This document shows, piece after piece, positions 20,843 through 39,600 of a stretch of 46,458 bases of DNA (position 1 is the stretch's first letter; the number at the start of each line of letters is the position of its first letter). The notes beneath the pieces are model-generated. The model made no database searches. It was given only the letters and a program-made list of their open reading frames with translations, and was not told the origin of the DNA. Both the position numbers and the translations under genes were made by a program. Source of the stretch: Escherichia phage Phagiculus; the sequence record OR896821.1. The stretch is one strand, 5' to 3'.

Positions 20843-22426
20843 ATGTTTGATTTTAACGATGACAAATTGACTGTTGAGCAAGTAATGGCTGTTGCCGCTC
20901 AGGATGGATTGCCTCCCTTACGCGTTGCTATTAATGCTAATGGATATCGCCAGTCTCAATCATTCTGGAAATCACCTGTAGAGATTGACTCTGCAAATGA
21001 TAAGTACCCTACCATCTCTCTTGGTAACGATTTTGATGTGGTTGGTAAGTTAGCTAATAACATTGCTCGCTCTGTTCAGTTCCCCGAGGCTTCAGCTTAC
21101 ATGCACTTCCTGGGTTGCATCTCTGCGGCAATGCTAGGCCGCTTTACGGTTGAGTATCATGGAACTCAGCAACCTACGGCTTTGTACGTGGTAACTAGCC
21201 AGCCCCCATCCACTGGTAAGTCAGCAATCAACTCATTAGCGATTGCGCCAATGGTTGCAGAGGTTGAGCGAATCAACGACCAACGTAAACGTGAACGCAA
21301 GAAGATTATGGCTAAGCTGTCTGCGTTGGCTAAAGAGATGAAACAGGAGAAGTCACCATCTGAAATGGCATCTCTCTTTGAAGAGAAAGAAGACCTGGAG
21401 GAGAAGCTTGAGAAGATGTGCGATGTTGTATTCCCTGTTTCCGACACAACACCCGAAGGTCTTGCTCGCATCAACAATCGCCAGGGTAACTTTGCGGTAA
21501 TCTCGGATGAGGCGACATCAGTAAACTCATTGCTTGGCATGACTTATGGCGATAGTAGCAAGAAGACAAACAGCGAACTAGTTCTTAAGGCGTGGGACTC
21601 TGGTAACGTATCAATCGCTCGTGCCAACGCAGAAAACAATATGAGTTTTGTTGCTTTAGGTTGCATCTCTGTAATCGCGCAGGATGAGACAATTAACGCA
21701 ATAATGGATGCTGGTGCTCGTGGTATCGGTGTATCAGAGCGTTTCTTATTAGTTCGTGAAAAATCATTCCTGGGCGAACGTGTATTTGTTAACGATAACG
21801 GTGAATCAACTTACGAGCCCATCGATAATGGACTGAAAGCTGATTACTTCCGCCTGGTTCATGAAATTATGTCAGAGGTTGATGTTAAGCTGACAATCAG
21901 TAACGGTGCAGCGCTTTACCTTAACCGCGCTCGTCAGGAAATGGAACCTCACCTCGGTGATGGAGGCAAATACTCTCACTCCATGCTACGTGGCGCTCTG
22001 GGCAAGTTTGATAAGCAGGTAATTCGTATTGCGGCAGTTCTTCATACAATTCGCAATTGGGTTAATCTTAATGGTGGTAGTCCGCAGAAAGAAAGAACAA
22101 TTGACCTTGATACTATGCAGGAAGCCATTGCGATTTTCCATGAACTTAGTAAGACTTATCTTTCATCTGCAAATGCGGCTGGTCATGCTGGTGATAATGC
22201 CGAGATGAATAAGCTGATTGATATTTTGATTAAGCAAGGCAAGGCATCCAAAGGAGTGGTGGGCATTCGTGCGCTTTACGAAGCTGCTCGCAAGGTAAAA
22301 CCATTTAACTCCCAGAATGGTACCATGTTAAAGATTAAAGAACACTTAATGCCAATGCTTGATGAAAAAAACTACACTTGCACAATAGGAGAGAAAATTT
22401 ATGTCAACCCTCGCTTGCTTAGCTGA
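20843..22426 (+). CDS. P-loop NTPase, DUF3987-like replication-associated protein
   Basis: Walker A-like QPPSTGKS and Walker B-like VISDEA. Confidence 0.55.
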   Translation: MFDFNDDKLTVEQVMAVAAQDGLPPLRVAINANGYRQSQSFWKSPVEIDSANDKYPTISLGNDFDVVGKLANNIARSVQFPEASAYMHFLGCISAAMLGRFTVEYHGTQQPTALYVVTSQPPSTGKSAINSLAIAPMVAEVERINDQRKRERKKIMAKLSALAKEMKQEKSPSEMASLFEEKEDLEEKLEKMCDVVFPVSDTTPEGLARINNRQGNFAVISDEATSVNSLLGMTYGDSSKKTNSELVLKAWDSGNVSIARANAENNMSFVALGCISVIAQDETINAIMDAGARGIGVSERFLLVREKSFLGERVFVNDNGESTYEPIDNGLKADYFRLVHEIMSEVDVKLTISNGAALYLNRARQEMEPHLGDGGKYSHSMLRGALGKFDKQVIRIAAVLHTIRNWVNLNGGSPQKERTIDLDTMQEAIAIFHELSKTYLSSANAAGHAGDNAEMNKLIDILIKQGKASKGVVGIRALYEAARKVKPFNSQNGTMLKIKEHLMPMLDEKNYTCTIGEKIYVNPRLLS

Positions 22427-22883
22427 TGTTTATTATGATGGTATAGATTTAGTCTGGGCTAGAGATATGGGACCAGCAATAATAAAGGGCAGTTATTGCG
22501 GAAACATTTCAAGGGGTGGGTACAAAAGGTTTTATCATGCAGGTAAACGGCTTAGTAATCACATTGTTATATGGAATATAGTAAATGGAGAAATACCTAA
22601 AGGAATGGAAATTGACCACATAAATCATGACAGATCTGAAAATAGAATAGAAAATTTAAGGCTGGTATCAAGACAGGAAAATGCAAAAAACAAAGGAATC
22701 TATAAAAGCAATACTAGCGGTTTTTCTGGGGTTACTATAGAAAAGAACGGCAAGTTTAAAGCAAGAATATCTGTGAGTGGTAAAAGGGTAGCGCTTGGAA
22801 CTTACATTGATTTTAATGATGCTTGCAACGCGATAATGAAAGCCAGATTGAAGTACAAATTCCACGAAAATCACGGAGGTTAA
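22401..22883 (+). CDS. HNH homing endonuclease with AP2-like domain
   Basis: EIDHINHDRSENRIENLRLVSRQEN; paralogous to 35967..36440. Confidence 0.8.
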   Translation: MSTLACLADVYYDGIDLVWARDMGPAIIKGSYCGNISRGGYKRFYHAGKRLSNHIVIWNIVNGEIPKGMEIDHINHDRSENRIENLRLVSRQENAKNKGIYKSNTSGFSGVTIEKNGKFKARISVSGKRVALGTYIDFNDACNAIMKARLKYKFHENHGG

Positions 22884-22886
22884 CTT

Positions 22887-23221
22887 TGTTTGTATTAGAT
22901 GTATTTAAATTCTGCGAAAGCTATGAGAGATTTAACCGCCAGCATTTGGCAAGGTTCATTTATCAACATAGAGAGTGCGAGAGACTTGCTAAGCTTGCTG
23001 GTGTTACAACTCGATACTTTGCATCAAGCTCTTCAAGGGAGTTCCTTGCAAGGTGTATGTCTGCTGGCTACATTGATGGAGTTAACAACTGGTATTGGGT
23101 GATAAGTAAAAGTCGCAGGCCGTTCGGTTTTGAGTTCAGGAGTTTTAGAGGAAATGATGAGGATTACATCAAGGAGATTATGAGCATTAACGAAATGTCA
23201 GATGATGAGTTGTTTAAATAG
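22887..23221 (+). CDS. hypothetical protein (about 112 aa), probable TTG start
   Basis: GGAGG RBS 6 nt before TTG. Confidence 0.35.
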
Positions 23222-23222
23222 A

Positions 23223-23247
23223 TAAAGGGGCTTACGCCCCTTTTTTA
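23223..23247. terminator. bidirectional terminator between convergent genes
   Basis: AGGGGC-TTAC-GCCCCT flanked by A-run and T-run. Confidence 0.55.
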
Positions 23248-23636
23248 TTGCCTACATATTTTAGTGAGAAGTAAGTCATTAGCCCCGCAATAAGCCCAGC
23301 CAGAATCCCCCAAGCAATAGAATCAACCCCAGAACTTTCGGAGCTATTAATCTCTATTTTTTCCGCATTAATTGAGTGCGCTGAGAGACCCGTAGCGGCT
23401 GTCTTTTTTCCGGCAGATGAATCTACATCCCTGTTAGTTGAGTTGCGCATATCGCTATCTGTGGCGCTAGATTTATCCGTTTGGTTAGATACTCCAACGC
23501 CAGTCTTTTGGTTAGACTCTCCAACCTGAGCAGTTGCTTCAATTCCATCTTTAGCAGGAAGTAAATCAGATACCGCAGAGAGGGCAGAGCAACCAGTCAG
23601 GAAGATAATTGCAGTTAGCGCAAGTGACTTAAGCAT
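23232..23636 (-). CDS. unimolecular spanin (T1 gp11-like)
   Basis: N-terminal lipobox LTGC, C-terminal TM helix, directly downstream of endolysin. Confidence 0.65.
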   Translation of the reverse strand: MLKSLALTAIIFLTGCSALSAVSDLLPAKDGIEATAQVGESNQKTGVGVSNQTDKSSATDSDMRNSTNRDVDSSAGKKTAATGLSAHSINAEKIEINSSESSGVDSIAWGILAGLIAGLMTYFSLKYVGNKKGA

Positions 23637-24100
23637 AGTTCCACCTCTGCATTTCTGCGGTTAACTAACCCTTTAGAAACAACCTTTTTGCCATTTACTG
23701 TAATCTTGTTGAACATCTTCAGCGCATTACATCCGCCATAAATGTCGCCCTGATTAATCTTTCTGATAGCCGTAGATTTACGCATAGCGCTTGTTCCGAC
23801 GTTAAAAGAGAAACTGTATAGTGCAGCCCTGGTATTAACCGGAACGTTCACATTCAATGCTTTATCAACAGCTAGTTGATGAATAGCTAGATGCTTAGCA
23901 AGGAGAGCATCACATTCTTTCTGTGTGTATGTCTTGCCTTTAATTACATCAGGGCCAGTAACCCCCTGGCATACCGTCCAAACACCAGCAACATCAAGGT
24001 ACGGCTTGTACTCAACGCCTTCATGCTTATTCAGGAATGGAACGGCAATGGCTATAGCGGAACCTACGGCGCCGCCAATAACTTTATTCTTTAGGTTCAT
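23615..24100 (-). CDS. SAR endolysin (GH24 lysozyme)
   Basis: E-x8-D-x5-T catalytic pattern (HEGVEYKPYLDVAGVWT) and N-terminal Gly/Ala-rich signal-anchor-release segment. Confidence 0.8.
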   Translation of the reverse strand: MNLKNKVIGGAVGSAIAIAVPFLNKHEGVEYKPYLDVAGVWTVCQGVTGPDVIKGKTYTQKECDALLAKHLAIHQLAVDKALNVNVPVNTRAALYSFSFNVGTSAMRKSTAIRKINQGDIYGGCNALKMFNKITVNGKKVVSKGLVNRRNAEVELCLSHLR

Positions 24101-24315
24101 TATTTACTCCTGATTCGCATAGCCTCACGAATATCTCCATCTTCAAGCGCCTTATGAAGTGCCTTACTGTCACGCCAGCGCAACCATGCGCCGAAAACAC
24201 CGAAGCACACAGCTATGATTAAGCCGATAATGCCGATTATTGTGTTGTCAGATAAGCCGCCACCCATAGCTACTCCGCTACCGGACAAAGCGGCTGCGTC
24301 GTAGAAATGTTTCAA
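24100..24315 (-). CDS. holin
   Basis: 71 aa, single TM, charged C-terminus, overlaps endolysin start. Confidence 0.6.
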   Translation of the reverse strand: MKHFYDAAALSGSGVAMGGGLSDNTIIGIIGLIIAVCFGVFGAWLRWRDSKALHKALEDGDIREAMRIRSK

Positions 24316-24377
24316 CTTGCGGCCTCCATTAGTTTATTTGAACAAATTTTACCAGACAATCCATCAAAACATGAACG

Positions 24378-24404
24378 AAAAAAGGGAGCCGATTAAGGCT
24401 CCCC
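24378..24404 (-). terminator. intrinsic terminator upstream of lysis cassette
   Basis: minus strand GGGAGCC-TTAATC-GGCTCCC followed by TTTTTT. Confidence 0.5.
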
Positions 24405-24429
24405 ATAGGTAAGTTTGTGAATTTATTTG

Positions 24430-24603
24430 TTAATCTGCAACAACAAAAGTCAGATAGTGCCCTTCAAGTGGTGAGTAAATCCATCTACCATCCTCACCAA
24501 GAATCTTGTACATATCACCATCTAAATGCTCAGCATTGTAAGGAGTGTCAATTTCAAATTGCATTGTTTTGGAATCGTTACGTACGCAGAATAATTTAGT
24601 CAT
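24430..24603 (-). CDS. hypothetical small protein (57 aa), not in ORF track
   Basis: GAGAG-type leader as in neighbours; plus-strand ORF 24417..24599 is its shadow. Confidence 0.35.
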   Translation of the reverse strand: MTKLFCVRNDSKTMQFEIDTPYNAEHLDGDMYKILGEDGRWIYSPLEGHYLTFVVAD

Positions 24604-24617
24604 TTTCAATCTCTCTA

Positions 24618-35921: not shown

Positions 35922-35964
35922 ACTATACACCATCGATTTAATCCTGTTTTAGCTATTCGTGCTA
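35922..35964 (-). promoter_or_regulatory. conserved promoter module
   Basis: tagctattcgtgcta (one mismatch); minus-strand TATAGT at 35927..35922; leader CCTAATCGACAAAAAAGAGAGA. Confidence 0.5.
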
Positions 35965-35966
35965 TA

Positions 35967-36440
35967 TCATTCGTGATTTTCATGAAATCCAAGCTCTAAC
36001 AGCTTATTCCTTCTTGATTCCGCAGCATCACTCAATGAGTTAAAGTACCCACAGTGGTAATACTTACCATTACACCTAACTGACGCTTTATATTTATTCA
36101 TCCTTTTGCAAAAAGTTACACCTTGAACTCCAGTTTTTGAGTTTTTGCCTATTGATTTATTTTTATTGTTATCAGAGCAAGTGACAAGTCTAAGGTTTTC
36201 AATTCTGTTATCTCCATTATCATGATTTATATGATCAACTTGCATTCCTTTCGGTATTGGTCCGTTAAACATCTCCCATACAACCCTGTGAACAAAGTAT
36301 ATCTTCTTATCAAGACCAACTCTCTTATATCCTGTCTTTTCTACCCTCCCAGCCTCCCATCCGACACATATAACTCTTGATGGCTTAACCTTCCAAAATA
36401 TTAAACCTTCACTGTAATCAAACCAATCATGCCAATTCAT
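35967..36440 (-). CDS. HNH homing endonuclease with AP2-like domain
   Basis: QVDHINHDNGDNRIENLRLVTCSDNNKNK; C-terminal ELGFHENH. Confidence 0.8.
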   Translation of the reverse strand: MNWHDWFDYSEGLIFWKVKPSRVICVGWEAGRVEKTGYKRVGLDKKIYFVHRVVWEMFNGPIPKGMQVDHINHDNGDNRIENLRLVTCSDNNKNKSIGKNSKTGVQGVTFCKRMNKYKASVRCNGKYYHCGYFNSLSDAAESRRNKLLELGFHENHE

Positions 36441-39378: not shown

Positions 39379-39600
39379 ATGAAAAAGTTAATCGTTATCG
39401 CGGCAATGATGTTAGGCGGATGCTCTACGATGCCAGAGCGCACTTGTACGGCGATTTATGAGTCTGGTGGTATGAGTTACTCGGTTTATGTTTTTGGCAC
39501 GCAGAAGCGCGGCGAGGAGATTTTACTGAGGGCTGGGTATCCATTCTCGTTTCATTACGTGTCTGAGCGGAATTTTAGAGACCACGATTGTGGCGGTTGA
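39379..39600 (+). CDS. small lipoprotein (Cor/Llp-like superinfection exclusion candidate)
   Basis: signal peptide with lipobox LGGC (MKKLIVIAAMMLGGCS); 73 aa; convergent with the tail tip gene cluster. Confidence 0.5.
   Translation: MKKLIVIAAMMLGGCSTMPERTCTAIYESGGMSYSVYVFGTQKRGEEILLRAGYPFSFHYVSERNFRDHDCGG

What the first reader, a model, noticed from the sequence alone, without database searches (positions are those of the whole stretch)
23232..24315. Lysis cassette with SAR endolysin and unimolecular spanin
Holin (71 aa), GH24 lysozyme with an N-terminal signal-anchor-release segment, and a single protein with both an N-terminal lipoprotein signal (LTGC) and a C-terminal TM helix. This T1-type one-component spanin, instead of an Rz/Rz1 pair, supports the T1-like assignment.
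Basis: partly seen in the sequence, partly recalled or inferred. Interest (0 to 1): 0.4.

Follow-up and report, generated by a model that had tools for sequence, protein, structure and literature searches.

The report
T1-type phage lysis cassette, confirmed

Summary
Confirmed and ordinary. On the minus strand of 23232-24315 lie three tightly packed genes. They encode a 71-aa holin (TTG start), a 161-aa GH24 lysozyme with an N-terminal SAR-type segment, and a 134-aa protein with an LTGC lipobox (Cys16) and a C-terminal TM helix. All three are homologues of T1 gp13, gp12 and gp11 (38, 49 and 32% identity), in the same order and genomic position. They are closer to the Rogue1 proteins (97, 79 and 75%). 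The lysozyme's best solved relatives are RrrD (DLP12 prophage lysozyme) and the phage 21 SAR endolysin R21 (E about 1e-36), aligned into the N-terminal segment. The E27-D36-T42 triad is invariant and the SAR segment has no Cys (R21 type). No second lipobox ORF exists in the cassette, and only one other in the whole window (a Cor homologue), so there is no hidden Rz1. The window is the complete 46,458-bp genome of Escherichia phage Phagiculus (Drexlerviridae, Rogunavirinae). GenBank already names the three proteins holin, endolysin and Rz-like spanin. Caveats: the gp11 family also occurs in Klebsiella podophages, so the spanin alone is not diagnostic of T1-like phages. The pinholin topology and SAR release are inferred, not shown. 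Minor extras are the TTG holin start and uneven divergence across the cassette.

The parts
24383..24404 (-). Intrinsic-terminator-like hairpin (GGGGAGCC-loop-GGCTCCCT, then a T-run). It would end the upstream transcription unit, whose last gene encodes a DUF7244 protein, just before the cassette.
   Evidence: The DUF7244 gene is at 24430-24609.
24346..24354 (-). Possible extended -10 promoter element, TGGTAAAAT, about 30 nt upstream of the holin start. This is an inference only.
   Evidence: Read from the output. Rogue1 has TGGTATTAT at the equivalent place. The promoter scan did not report it because the -35 is weak.
24323..24327 (-). Shine-Dalgarno GGAGG, 7 nt upstream of the TTG start of the holin.
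24100..24315 (-). Holin, 71 aa, TTG start. It has a Gly/Ala/Ser-rich segment at residues 7-22, a strongly hydrophobic TMD at about 25-45, and a charged C-terminal tail. It is a homologue of T1 gp13 and a putative pinholin.
   Evidence: phrog_2877 holin, 2e-36, full length; 38% identity to T1 gp13; 97% to Rogue1; GenBank WWD11043.1 'holin'; hydropathy.
23615..24100 (-). SAR-type GH24 endolysin, 161 aa, homologue of T1 gp12.
   Evidence: PF00959, 5e-37; RrrD 4zpu 3.5e-37, R21 3hde 1.5e-36; 49% identity to T1 gp12; WWD11042.1 'endolysin'.
24032..24082 (-). Codons 7-23 of the endolysin: the SAR segment VIGGAVGSAIAIAVPFL. It is weakly hydrophobic, has no Cys, and is preceded by K4 and K6.
   Evidence: It aligns with the SAR domain of R21.
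23975..24022 (-). Codons 27-42 of the endolysin: the catalytic triad E27-X8-D36-X5-T42.
   Evidence: Invariant in the alignment with Rogue1, JK06, T1, JeanPiccard and R21. The motif definition is in PMC9239132.
23232..23636 (-). Unimolecular spanin, 134 aa, homologue of T1 gp11.
   Evidence: phrog_1804 Rz-like spanin, 7e-41; 32% identity to T1 gp11, E 3e-14; 75% to Rogue1; WWD11041.1 'Rz-like spanin'.
23589..23636 (-). Codons 1-16 of the spanin: the lipoprotein signal peptide, ending in the lipobox LTGC (23589-23600). Ser17 follows the Cys, so there is no Asp at +2.
   Evidence: L13, G15, C16 and S17 are invariant in 35 homologues.
23262..23321 (-). Codons 106-125 of the spanin: the C-terminal transmembrane helix, followed by a basic tail (KYVGNKKGA).
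   Evidence: AF2 predicts a helix at 103-128, with the highest pLDDT of the model. The segment is conserved in hydrophobicity and K131/K132 are invariant.
23224..23243 (.). Bidirectional intrinsic-terminator hairpin (AAAGGGGC-TTAC-GCCCCTTT) that contains the spanin stop codon. It is shared with the convergent plus-strand ST10-like gene. T1 and Rogue1 have the same arrangement.
   Evidence: T1 and Rogue1 carry annotated terminators overlapping the end of the spanin gene.

Best explanation
This is the late lysis cassette of a T1-like siphophage (Escherichia phage Phagiculus, Drexlerviridae, Rogunavirinae). It is a self-contained minus-strand unit, bracketed by intrinsic terminators, that attacks the three envelope layers in turn.

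1. The 161-aa lysozyme is exported by Sec, using its weakly hydrophobic N-terminal SAR segment as a signal anchor. It waits, tethered to the inner membrane and inactive. This is inferred from homology to R21.
2. The 71-aa holin accumulates in the inner membrane and, at a set time, triggers and depolarises it. It is most likely a two-TMD pinholin whose Gly/Ala/Ser-rich first segment can leave the bilayer. This is inferred.
3. Depolarisation releases the SAR segment. The enzyme refolds into its active form (R21 type, no SAR cysteine) and cuts the peptidoglycan through E27, D36 and T42.
4. The 134-aa spanin is lipidated at Cys16 and its N-terminus is sorted to the outer membrane, as Ser at +2 predicts. 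Its C-terminal helix stays in the inner membrane, so one chain of about 89 periplasmic residues threads the peptidoglycan mesh. Once the peptidoglycan is gone, the spanin molecules cluster and collapse, fusing the inner and outer membranes and releasing the phage.

The sequence features and homologies are shown here. The membrane dynamics are inferred from the characterised homologues R21 and T1 gp11.
For: - Gene order, sizes and position match T1 genes 13-12-11, between the ST14/ST16 and ST10/ST9 homologues.
- Pairwise homology to T1 gp13, gp12 and gp11 gives E 9e-17, 6e-55 and 3e-14.
- PHROG families holin, endolysin and Rz-like spanin match at 2e-36, 6e-55 and 7e-41.
- The endolysin matches PF00959. 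Its best solved relatives are RrrD and R21, aligned from residue 8, which includes the SAR segment.
- E27, D36, T42 and four Cys residues outside the SAR segment are invariant, including in R21.
- In the spanin, the lipobox residues L13, G15, C16 and S17 and the C-terminal KK are invariant in 35 homologues. There is no periplasmic Cys, as reported for all 58 u-spanins (PMC6139136).
- Rogue1 and JK06, at 75% and 72% identity, are listed members of the T1gp11 family. Members of that family sit in pinholin plus SAR-endolysin cassettes, and T1 gp11 alone complements lambda RzRz1.
- No other lipobox ORF exists in the cassette, and only Cor elsewhere in the window.
- Terminators bracket the unit.
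- The exact proteins are in GenBank as holin, endolysin and Rz-like spanin of phage Phagiculus.
Against: - Nothing contradicts the identification.
- Holin topology is weak. Only one strongly hydrophobic segment exists. The putative TMD1 is only about 16 residues with mean Kyte-Doolittle hydropathy 1.03. The T1 record calls its holin single-TMD, whereas PMC11447400 calls it a two-TMD pinholin.
- The SAR segment contains an AXA-like AIA motif, so signal-peptidase cleavage cannot be excluded from sequence alone.
- The AF2 model of the spanin has low confidence (mean pLDDT 57). It shows no beta strands in the periplasmic part, so the family's beta-rich trait was not reproduced.
- No experiment on this phage is available.
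Confidence: 0.9

Rival explanations
1. The 71-aa holin is not a pinholin. It is a single-TMD holin (N-terminus out, C-terminus in) that forms larger holes or works in some other way. The SAR endolysin would still need only depolarisation.
For: Only residues about 25-45 are strongly hydrophobic (mean Kyte-Doolittle 2.45). The N-terminal segment 7-22 scores 1.03 and is short. The T1 GenBank record notes a 'single transmembrane domain' for gp13. There is no Pfam or NCBIfam holin family match.
Against: The Gly/Ala/Ser-rich N-terminal segment is conserved across T1, JeanPiccard and Rogue1. It resembles SAR-type TMD1 segments in composition (75% G/A/S/T). The literature classifies the T1 and TLS holins as two-TMD class II pinholins, and T1gp11-family cassettes as pinholin plus SAR endolysin. 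None of this has been tested experimentally for this family, as far as I found.
Confidence: 0.3
2. The N-terminal segment of the endolysin is a cleavable Sec signal peptide. The enzyme would then be secreted as a soluble periplasmic protein, not a signal-anchor-release protein.
For: The N-terminus has the n-region and h-region layout of a signal peptide, with an A15-I16-A17 (AXA-like) motif. No signal-peptide predictor was available.
Against: The segment aligns with the SAR domain of R21, which carries the same AIAIA motif, and its crystal structure 3hde retains the SAR domain. A freely secreted active lysozyme would remove the holin's control of timing. The segment is 47% Gly/Ala/Ser, as is typical of SAR domains (PMC9239132).
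Confidence: 0.05
3. The 134-aa protein is only an o-spanin (Rz1-like, as many records name its homologues). It would work with an unrecognised inner-membrane i-spanin partner.
For: Many GenBank records call the homologues 'Rz1 protein' or 'Rz-like spanin'.
Against: A C-terminal TM helix with a basic tail is conserved in all 35 homologues, which an o-spanin does not have. No embedded, overlapped or adjacent candidate exists. There is no periplasmic Cys. T1 gp11 alone complements the lambda RzRz1 defect (PMC6139136).
Confidence: 0.03

Closest known systems
Escherichia phage T1 lysis cassette (gp13 holin, gp12 endolysin, gp11 unimolecular spanin)
   Same: Same three genes in the same order, with nearly the same lengths (71/161/134 aa here, 71/162/133 aa in T1). 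Same genomic position, and the same terminator overlapping the end of the spanin gene. The lipobox type is similar (LTGC here, LSGC in T1), with Ser at +2 in both.
   Different: Identity is only 38, 49 and 32%. Here the endolysin and spanin genes overlap by 22 nt, against 1 nt in T1. The holin starts with TTG instead of ATG. T1 carries an HNH gene (ST15) upstream of the cassette, whereas this phage carries a different HNH_3 gene downstream, between the ST9 and ST10 homologues.
Rogunavirus lysis cassettes (Rogue1, JK06, AHP42, e4/1c)
   Same: These are the closest relatives. Protein identity to Rogue1 is 97, 79 and 75%. The endolysin/spanin overlap is of the same kind, and the flanking ST10-like (YdbL) and helicase genes are the same.
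   Different: DNA identity over the cassette is only about 77%. The start codon is TTG against ATG. The holin gene is much less diverged (89% nt) than the endolysin and spanin genes (72-73% nt).
Phage 21 SAR endolysin R21 (PDB 3hde, 3hdf) and the DLP12 prophage lysozyme RrrD (4zpu)
   Same: The match at E about 1e-36 runs from the SAR segment to the C-terminus. The E-X8-D-X5-T triad is the same, the four Cys positions are the same, and the SAR segment has no Cys.
   Different: About 48% identity. This protein lacks the six-residue stretch that R21 carries between the SAR segment and the catalytic Glu.
Lambda Rz/Rz1 two-component spanin
   Same: It has the same role, physically linking the inner and outer membranes and disrupting the outer membrane after peptidoglycan degradation. 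T1 gp11 complements an RzRz1 defect (PMC6139136).
   Different: Here there is one polypeptide instead of two. No coiled-coil helices are predicted, there are no periplasmic cysteines, and there is no sequence similarity.

Membership tests
T1gp11 unimolecular spanin family (Kongari et al. 2018, PMC6139136) | N-terminal lipoprotein signal with a lipobox and a lipidated Cys, and no inner-membrane retention residue (Asp) at +2. | tested here: met
   The lipobox is LTGC with Cys16 and Ser17. The h-region has mean Kyte-Doolittle hydropathy about 2.0, and K3 lies in the n-region. L13, G15, C16 and S17 are invariant in 35 homologues. LipoP itself was not available.
T1gp11 unimolecular spanin family (Kongari et al. 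2018, PMC6139136) | C-terminal transmembrane domain. | tested here: met
   There is a hydrophobic stretch at residues 106-125 followed by a basic tail. AF2 predicts a helix at 103-128. The feature is conserved in all homologues.
T1gp11 unimolecular spanin family (Kongari et al. 2018, PMC6139136) | At least 40% identity over at least 40% of the length to a family member (the paper's clustering rule). | tested here: met
   Identity is 75% over 100% of the length to Rogue1 and 72% to JK06, both listed members. Identity to T1 gp11 itself is 32%.
T1gp11 unimolecular spanin family (Kongari et al. 2018, PMC6139136) | No periplasmic cysteine. | tested here: met
   The only Cys is C16.
T1gp11 unimolecular spanin family (Kongari et al. 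2018, PMC6139136) | Periplasmic domain with a short helix followed by four or more beta strands, and no coiled coil. | tested here: inconclusive
   The AF2 monomer model built on a 35-sequence alignment has mean pLDDT 57. The periplasmic part shows no helices (so no coiled coil) but also no strands.
T1gp11 unimolecular spanin family (Kongari et al. 2018, PMC6139136) | Last gene of a lysis cassette, and sufficient alone for outer-membrane disruption (complements lambda RzRz1). | not testable with these tools
   The position as the last gene of the cassette is met. Complementation needs an experiment.
SAR endolysin, R21 type | Lysozyme fold of the T4L/GH24 type with the catalytic triad E-X8-D/C-X5-T. 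| tested here: met
   PF00959 matches at 5e-37. E27, D36 and T42 are invariant. The motif is as defined in PMC9239132.
SAR endolysin, R21 type | N-terminal basic residues followed by an uncharged, weakly hydrophobic TMD rich in Gly, Ala, Ser and Thr. | tested here: met
   K4 and K6 precede residues 7-23, which are 47% G/A/S with mean Kyte-Doolittle 2.14. The R21 segment scores 61% and 2.27. The segment aligns with the R21 SAR domain.
SAR endolysin, R21 type | No Cys in the SAR segment, so activation is by refolding and not by disulfide isomerisation as in P1 Lyz. | tested here: met
   The Cys residues are at 44, 63, 124 and 156 only, the same columns as in R21. P1 Lyz is a much weaker match (1e-6).
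SAR endolysin, R21 type | Membrane-tethered and inactive, then released by a pinholin or by depolarisation. | not testable with these tools
   PMC9239132 calls release by a pinholin 'the definitive test'. This needs an experiment.
Pinholin (class II holin, S21 type) | Two TMDs, the first weakly hydrophobic and able to leave the membrane. | tested here: inconclusive
   TMD2 (residues 25-45) is clear. The TMD1 candidate (7-22) is 75% G/A/S/T but short, with mean Kyte-Doolittle 1.03. Published opinions differ.
Pinholin (class II holin, S21 type) | Genetically paired with a SAR endolysin. | tested here: met
   It lies immediately upstream of the SAR-type endolysin, with overlapping stop and start codons.
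Pinholin (class II holin, S21 type) | Sequence homology to S21. | tested here: not met
The protein belongs to its own family, phrog_2877. So the claim is that it works like a pinholin, not that it is a member of the S21 family.

The most novel reading that the evidence does not exclude
The cassette may have been retuned for lysis timing in this phage. The holin start codon is TTG where four relatives have ATG, and it is paired with a stronger SD (GGAGG against AGAGG in Rogue1). The holin gene is also far less diverged from Rogunavirus holins (89% nt, dS 0.67) than the adjoining endolysin and spanin genes (72-73% nt, dS 1.5-2.5). That points to a recombination junction at the holin/endolysin boundary, or to unusually strong constraint on the lysis clock. 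If real, this would be a small natural example of modular exchange and translational tuning inside a lysis cassette.
Probability: 0.2. Interest if true: 0.2.

Novelty: already known. Interest (0 to 1): 0.08.

Why it matters
It matters little beyond correct annotation. The cassette confirms that this genome is a Drexlerviridae phage with the standard T1-type lysis strategy (holin, probably a pinholin; SAR endolysin; u-spanin). The public record could name its products more precisely as 'SAR endolysin' and 'unimolecular spanin' instead of 'endolysin' and 'Rz-like spanin'. The mechanism of u-spanins is still poorly understood in general. This member adds only one more sequence (32% identical to gp11) to an already large family.

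Tried and rejected
- **Embedded or overlapped Rz1-like ORF.** I scanned every ATG/GTG/TTG start on the minus strand of 23000-24500 for a lipobox. Only the 134-aa ORF qualified. The 41-aa embedded ORF at 23423..23548 has no signal peptide.
- **Separate o-spanin elsewhere.** A whole-window scan for lipoprotein signals found only the Cor homologue at 39379-39600.
- **Structure of the spanin periplasmic domain.** AF2 with a 35-sequence alignment gave a low-confidence model (mean pLDDT 57, pTM 0.23). I therefore ran no fold search.
- **Internal in-frame start in the spanin.** From memory, internal starts that give a shorter product are reported for T1 gp11; I could not verify this because PMC6206483 is not held. 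Only ATG63 and ATG120 exist here, and neither has an SD-like sequence upstream.
- **Pfam and NCBIfam for the holin and spanin.** There were no significant families. spanin2_3 scored 17 bits against a cut-off of 80.
- **Alignment of the holin with S21 68.** It was uninformative.
- **Sigma-70 consensus scan.** It found no promoter directly upstream of the holin. I noted only an extended -10-like motif, by eye.

Full report
**Observation.** The three ORFs are present at exactly the stated limits, all on the minus strand. They are the holin 24315..24100 (71 aa), the endolysin 24100..23615 (161 aa) and the spanin 23636..23232 (134 aa). The genes are packed for coupled translation. The holin stop TAA shares one base with the endolysin ATG, and the endolysin and spanin genes overlap by 22 nt. 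Each start has a Shine-Dalgarno sequence: GGAGG 7 nt before the holin TTG, AGGAG before the endolysin ATG, and GAGGTGG before the spanin ATG.

An intrinsic-terminator-like hairpin lies upstream of the cassette at 24404..24383. A bidirectional hairpin at 23224-23243 contains the spanin stop codon. The cassette therefore looks like a self-contained transcription unit. Between the upstream terminator and the holin there is an extended -10-like TGGTAAAAT (24346-24354). Rogue1 has TGGTATTAT at the same place. A promoter here is only an inference.

**Holin.** The protein matches PHROG 2877 (holin) over its full length at 2e-36. It is 38% identical to T1 gp13 and 97% identical to the Rogue1 holin. 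It has one strongly hydrophobic helix at about residues 25-45 (mean Kyte-Doolittle 2.45). Before that lies a conserved Gly/Ala/Ser-rich segment, residues 7-22, which is 75% G/A/S/T with mean Kyte-Doolittle 1.03. The C-terminal tail is highly charged.

The literature describes the T1 and TLS holins as two-TMD class II pinholins (PMC11447400). It also says that T1gp11-family spanins sit in pinholin plus SAR-endolysin cassettes (PMC6139136). The T1 GenBank record, however, says 'single transmembrane domain'. I therefore treat the pinholin topology as likely but unproven. The protein has no detectable sequence similarity to S21, so it may work like a pinholin but is not a member of the S21 family.

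**Endolysin.** The protein matches Pfam PF00959 (Phage_lysozyme; GH24 by my own knowledge of that family) at 5e-37. It is 49% identical to T1 gp12. Its best solved relatives are RrrD of prophage DLP12 (4zpu, 3.5e-37) and the phage 21 SAR endolysin R21 (3hde, 1.5e-36). Both alignments start at residue 8, inside the N-terminal hydrophobic segment.

The E-X8-D-X5-T triad (E27, D36, T42) and four cysteines (44, 63, 124, 156) are invariant across Rogue1, JK06, T1, JeanPiccard and R21. Residues 7-23 (VIGGAVGSAIAIAVPFL) are uncharged, 47% Gly/Ala/Ser, and preceded by K4 and K6. This fits the published description of SAR domains (PMC9239132). The segment has no Cys, so the protein is of the R21 type and not the P1 Lyz type. 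P1 Lyz matches only at about 1e-6. Release from the membrane on depolarisation, which is the definitive test, cannot be checked here.

**Spanin.** The protein matches PHROG 1804 (Rz-like spanin) at 7e-41. It is 32% identical to T1 gp11 (E 3e-14), 75% to the Rogue1 spanin and 72% to the JK06 spanin. Rogue1 and JK06 are listed members of the 28-member T1gp11 family of Kongari et al. 2018. By that paper's rule (40% identity over 40% of the length) this protein is a member.

The lipobox LTGC is coded at 23589-23600, and Cys16 is the only cysteine. Ser17 at +2 predicts sorting to the outer membrane by the established Lol rule. Residues 106-125 form a hydrophobic helix followed by KYVGNKKGA. L13, G15, C16, S17, K131 and K132 are invariant in 35 database homologues.

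The AF2 model built on that alignment has low confidence (mean pLDDT 57). It shows only the signal helix (3-22) and the TMD helix (103-128). The periplasmic part has no helices and no strands. This argues against an Rz-like coiled coil, but it does not confirm the beta-rich pattern reported for the family.

By my own arithmetic, an 89-residue periplasmic segment reaches about 29 nm if extended and about 13 nm if helical. Only a largely extended chain could bridge the periplasm.

A scan of every possible start on the cassette strand in 23000-24500 found no second lipobox ORF. In the whole window the only other lipoprotein-signal ORF is the Cor homologue at 39379-39600. No hidden Rz1 exists.

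**Context and identity of the window.** A tblastn of T1 proteins against the window shows genome-wide synteny. The cassette lies between homologues of ST16 and ST14 upstream and of ST10 and ST9 downstream. The nearest DNA relatives in the phage collection are Rogunavirus phages (JK06, C119, Rogue1), at about 80% identity over about half of a 24-kb query. Identity over the cassette is about 77%.

The spanin is 100% identical to 'Rz-like spanin [Escherichia phage Phagiculus]' on a contig of 46,458 bp, which is exactly the window length. The holin and endolysin are also exact matches: WWD11043.1 'holin' and WWD11042.1 'endolysin'. Phagiculus is an unclassified member of Rogunavirinae, Drexlerviridae, isolated by the Citizen Phage Library (PMC10893117). 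The finding is thus already annotated in the public record.

**Qualification of the taxonomic argument.** Homologues of the spanin occur in 1,059 phage records. These include 43-44-kb Klebsiella podophages such as KpV74 (Autographiviridae, Drulisvirus), where the gene order is spanin, holin, endolysin. KP34 is also in the T1gp11 family list. The u-spanin alone is therefore not diagnostic of T1-like phages. The synteny is.

**Mechanism (best explanation, confidence about 0.9 for identity).**

1. The endolysin is exported by Sec and tethered to the inner membrane by its SAR segment, in an inactive state.
2. The holin triggers and collapses the proton motive force.
3. The endolysin is released, refolds and degrades the peptidoglycan.
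4. The spanin is already anchored by lipid in the outer membrane and by its helix in the inner membrane. Freed from the peptidoglycan mesh, it fuses the two membranes.

Steps 1, 2 and 4, and the release and refolding in step 3, are inferred from R21 and T1 gp11. The catalytic residues and the targeting signals are shown in the sequence.

**Minor observations.** The holin uses TTG where Rogue1, JK06, T1 and JeanPiccard use ATG. The holin gene is much closer to that of Rogue1 (89% nt, dS 0.67, dN/dS 0.02) than the endolysin and spanin genes are (72-73% nt, dS 1.5-2.5). This suggests a mosaic junction near 24100, or stronger constraint on the holin. An HNH_3 homing-endonuclease ORF (22401..22883, PF13392 at 2e-19) sits between the helicase and the ST10-like gene. 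Rogue1, JK06, JeanPiccard and T1 have none at that place.

**Verdict.** The finding is already known and of low interest.

Noticed in passing
window 24313-24315 (minus strand): The holin start codon is TTG, with a strong SD (GGAGG at 24323-24327). Rogue1, JK06, T1 and JeanPiccard all have ATG at the homologous position. This might lower holin translation and delay lysis.
   Followed up: partly
window 23232-24315: Divergence from Rogue1 is uneven across the cassette. The holin gene is 89% nt and 97% aa identical (dS 0.67). The endolysin and spanin genes are 72-73% nt identical (dS 1.5-2.5). This suggests a recombination junction near 24100, or extra constraint on the holin.
   Followed up: partly
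window 22401-22883 (+): A 160-aa HNH_3 endonuclease ORF (PF13392, 2e-19) is wedged between the ST9-like helicase, whose end it overlaps, and the ST10/YdbL-like gene (22886-23221). Rogue1, JK06, JeanPiccard and T1 have no gene at that junction, so it is probably a free-standing homing endonuclease insertion.
   Followed up: partly
window ~35925-36440 (-): A second HNH endonuclease gene lies here. It is about 40% identical to T1 ST8, ST15 and ST63, but sits at a different genomic position, next to the recE homologue.
   Followed up: no
window 24346-24404 (minus strand): A terminator hairpin (24383-24404) is followed by an extended -10-like TGGTAAAAT (24346-24354), just upstream of the holin. Rogue1 has TGGTATTAT at the same place. 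This could be a dedicated promoter for the cassette.
   Followed up: no
window 24430-24609 (-): The small gene just upstream of the cassette encodes a DUF7244 protein (2.5e-24), homologous to T1 ST14. Its function is unknown, but its position next to the holin is conserved.
   Followed up: no
window 39379-39600 (+): This is the only other lipoprotein-signal ORF in the genome (MKKLIVIAAMMLGGCS...). It is a homologue of the T1 Cor superinfection-exclusion protein (78% identity).
   Followed up: partly
L004 (Klebsiella phage KpV74) 1968-3199: A Drulisvirus podophage carries a homologue of the gp11-family u-spanin, but in the order spanin, holin, endolysin. The spanin family has therefore moved between unrelated phage groups.
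   Followed up: no
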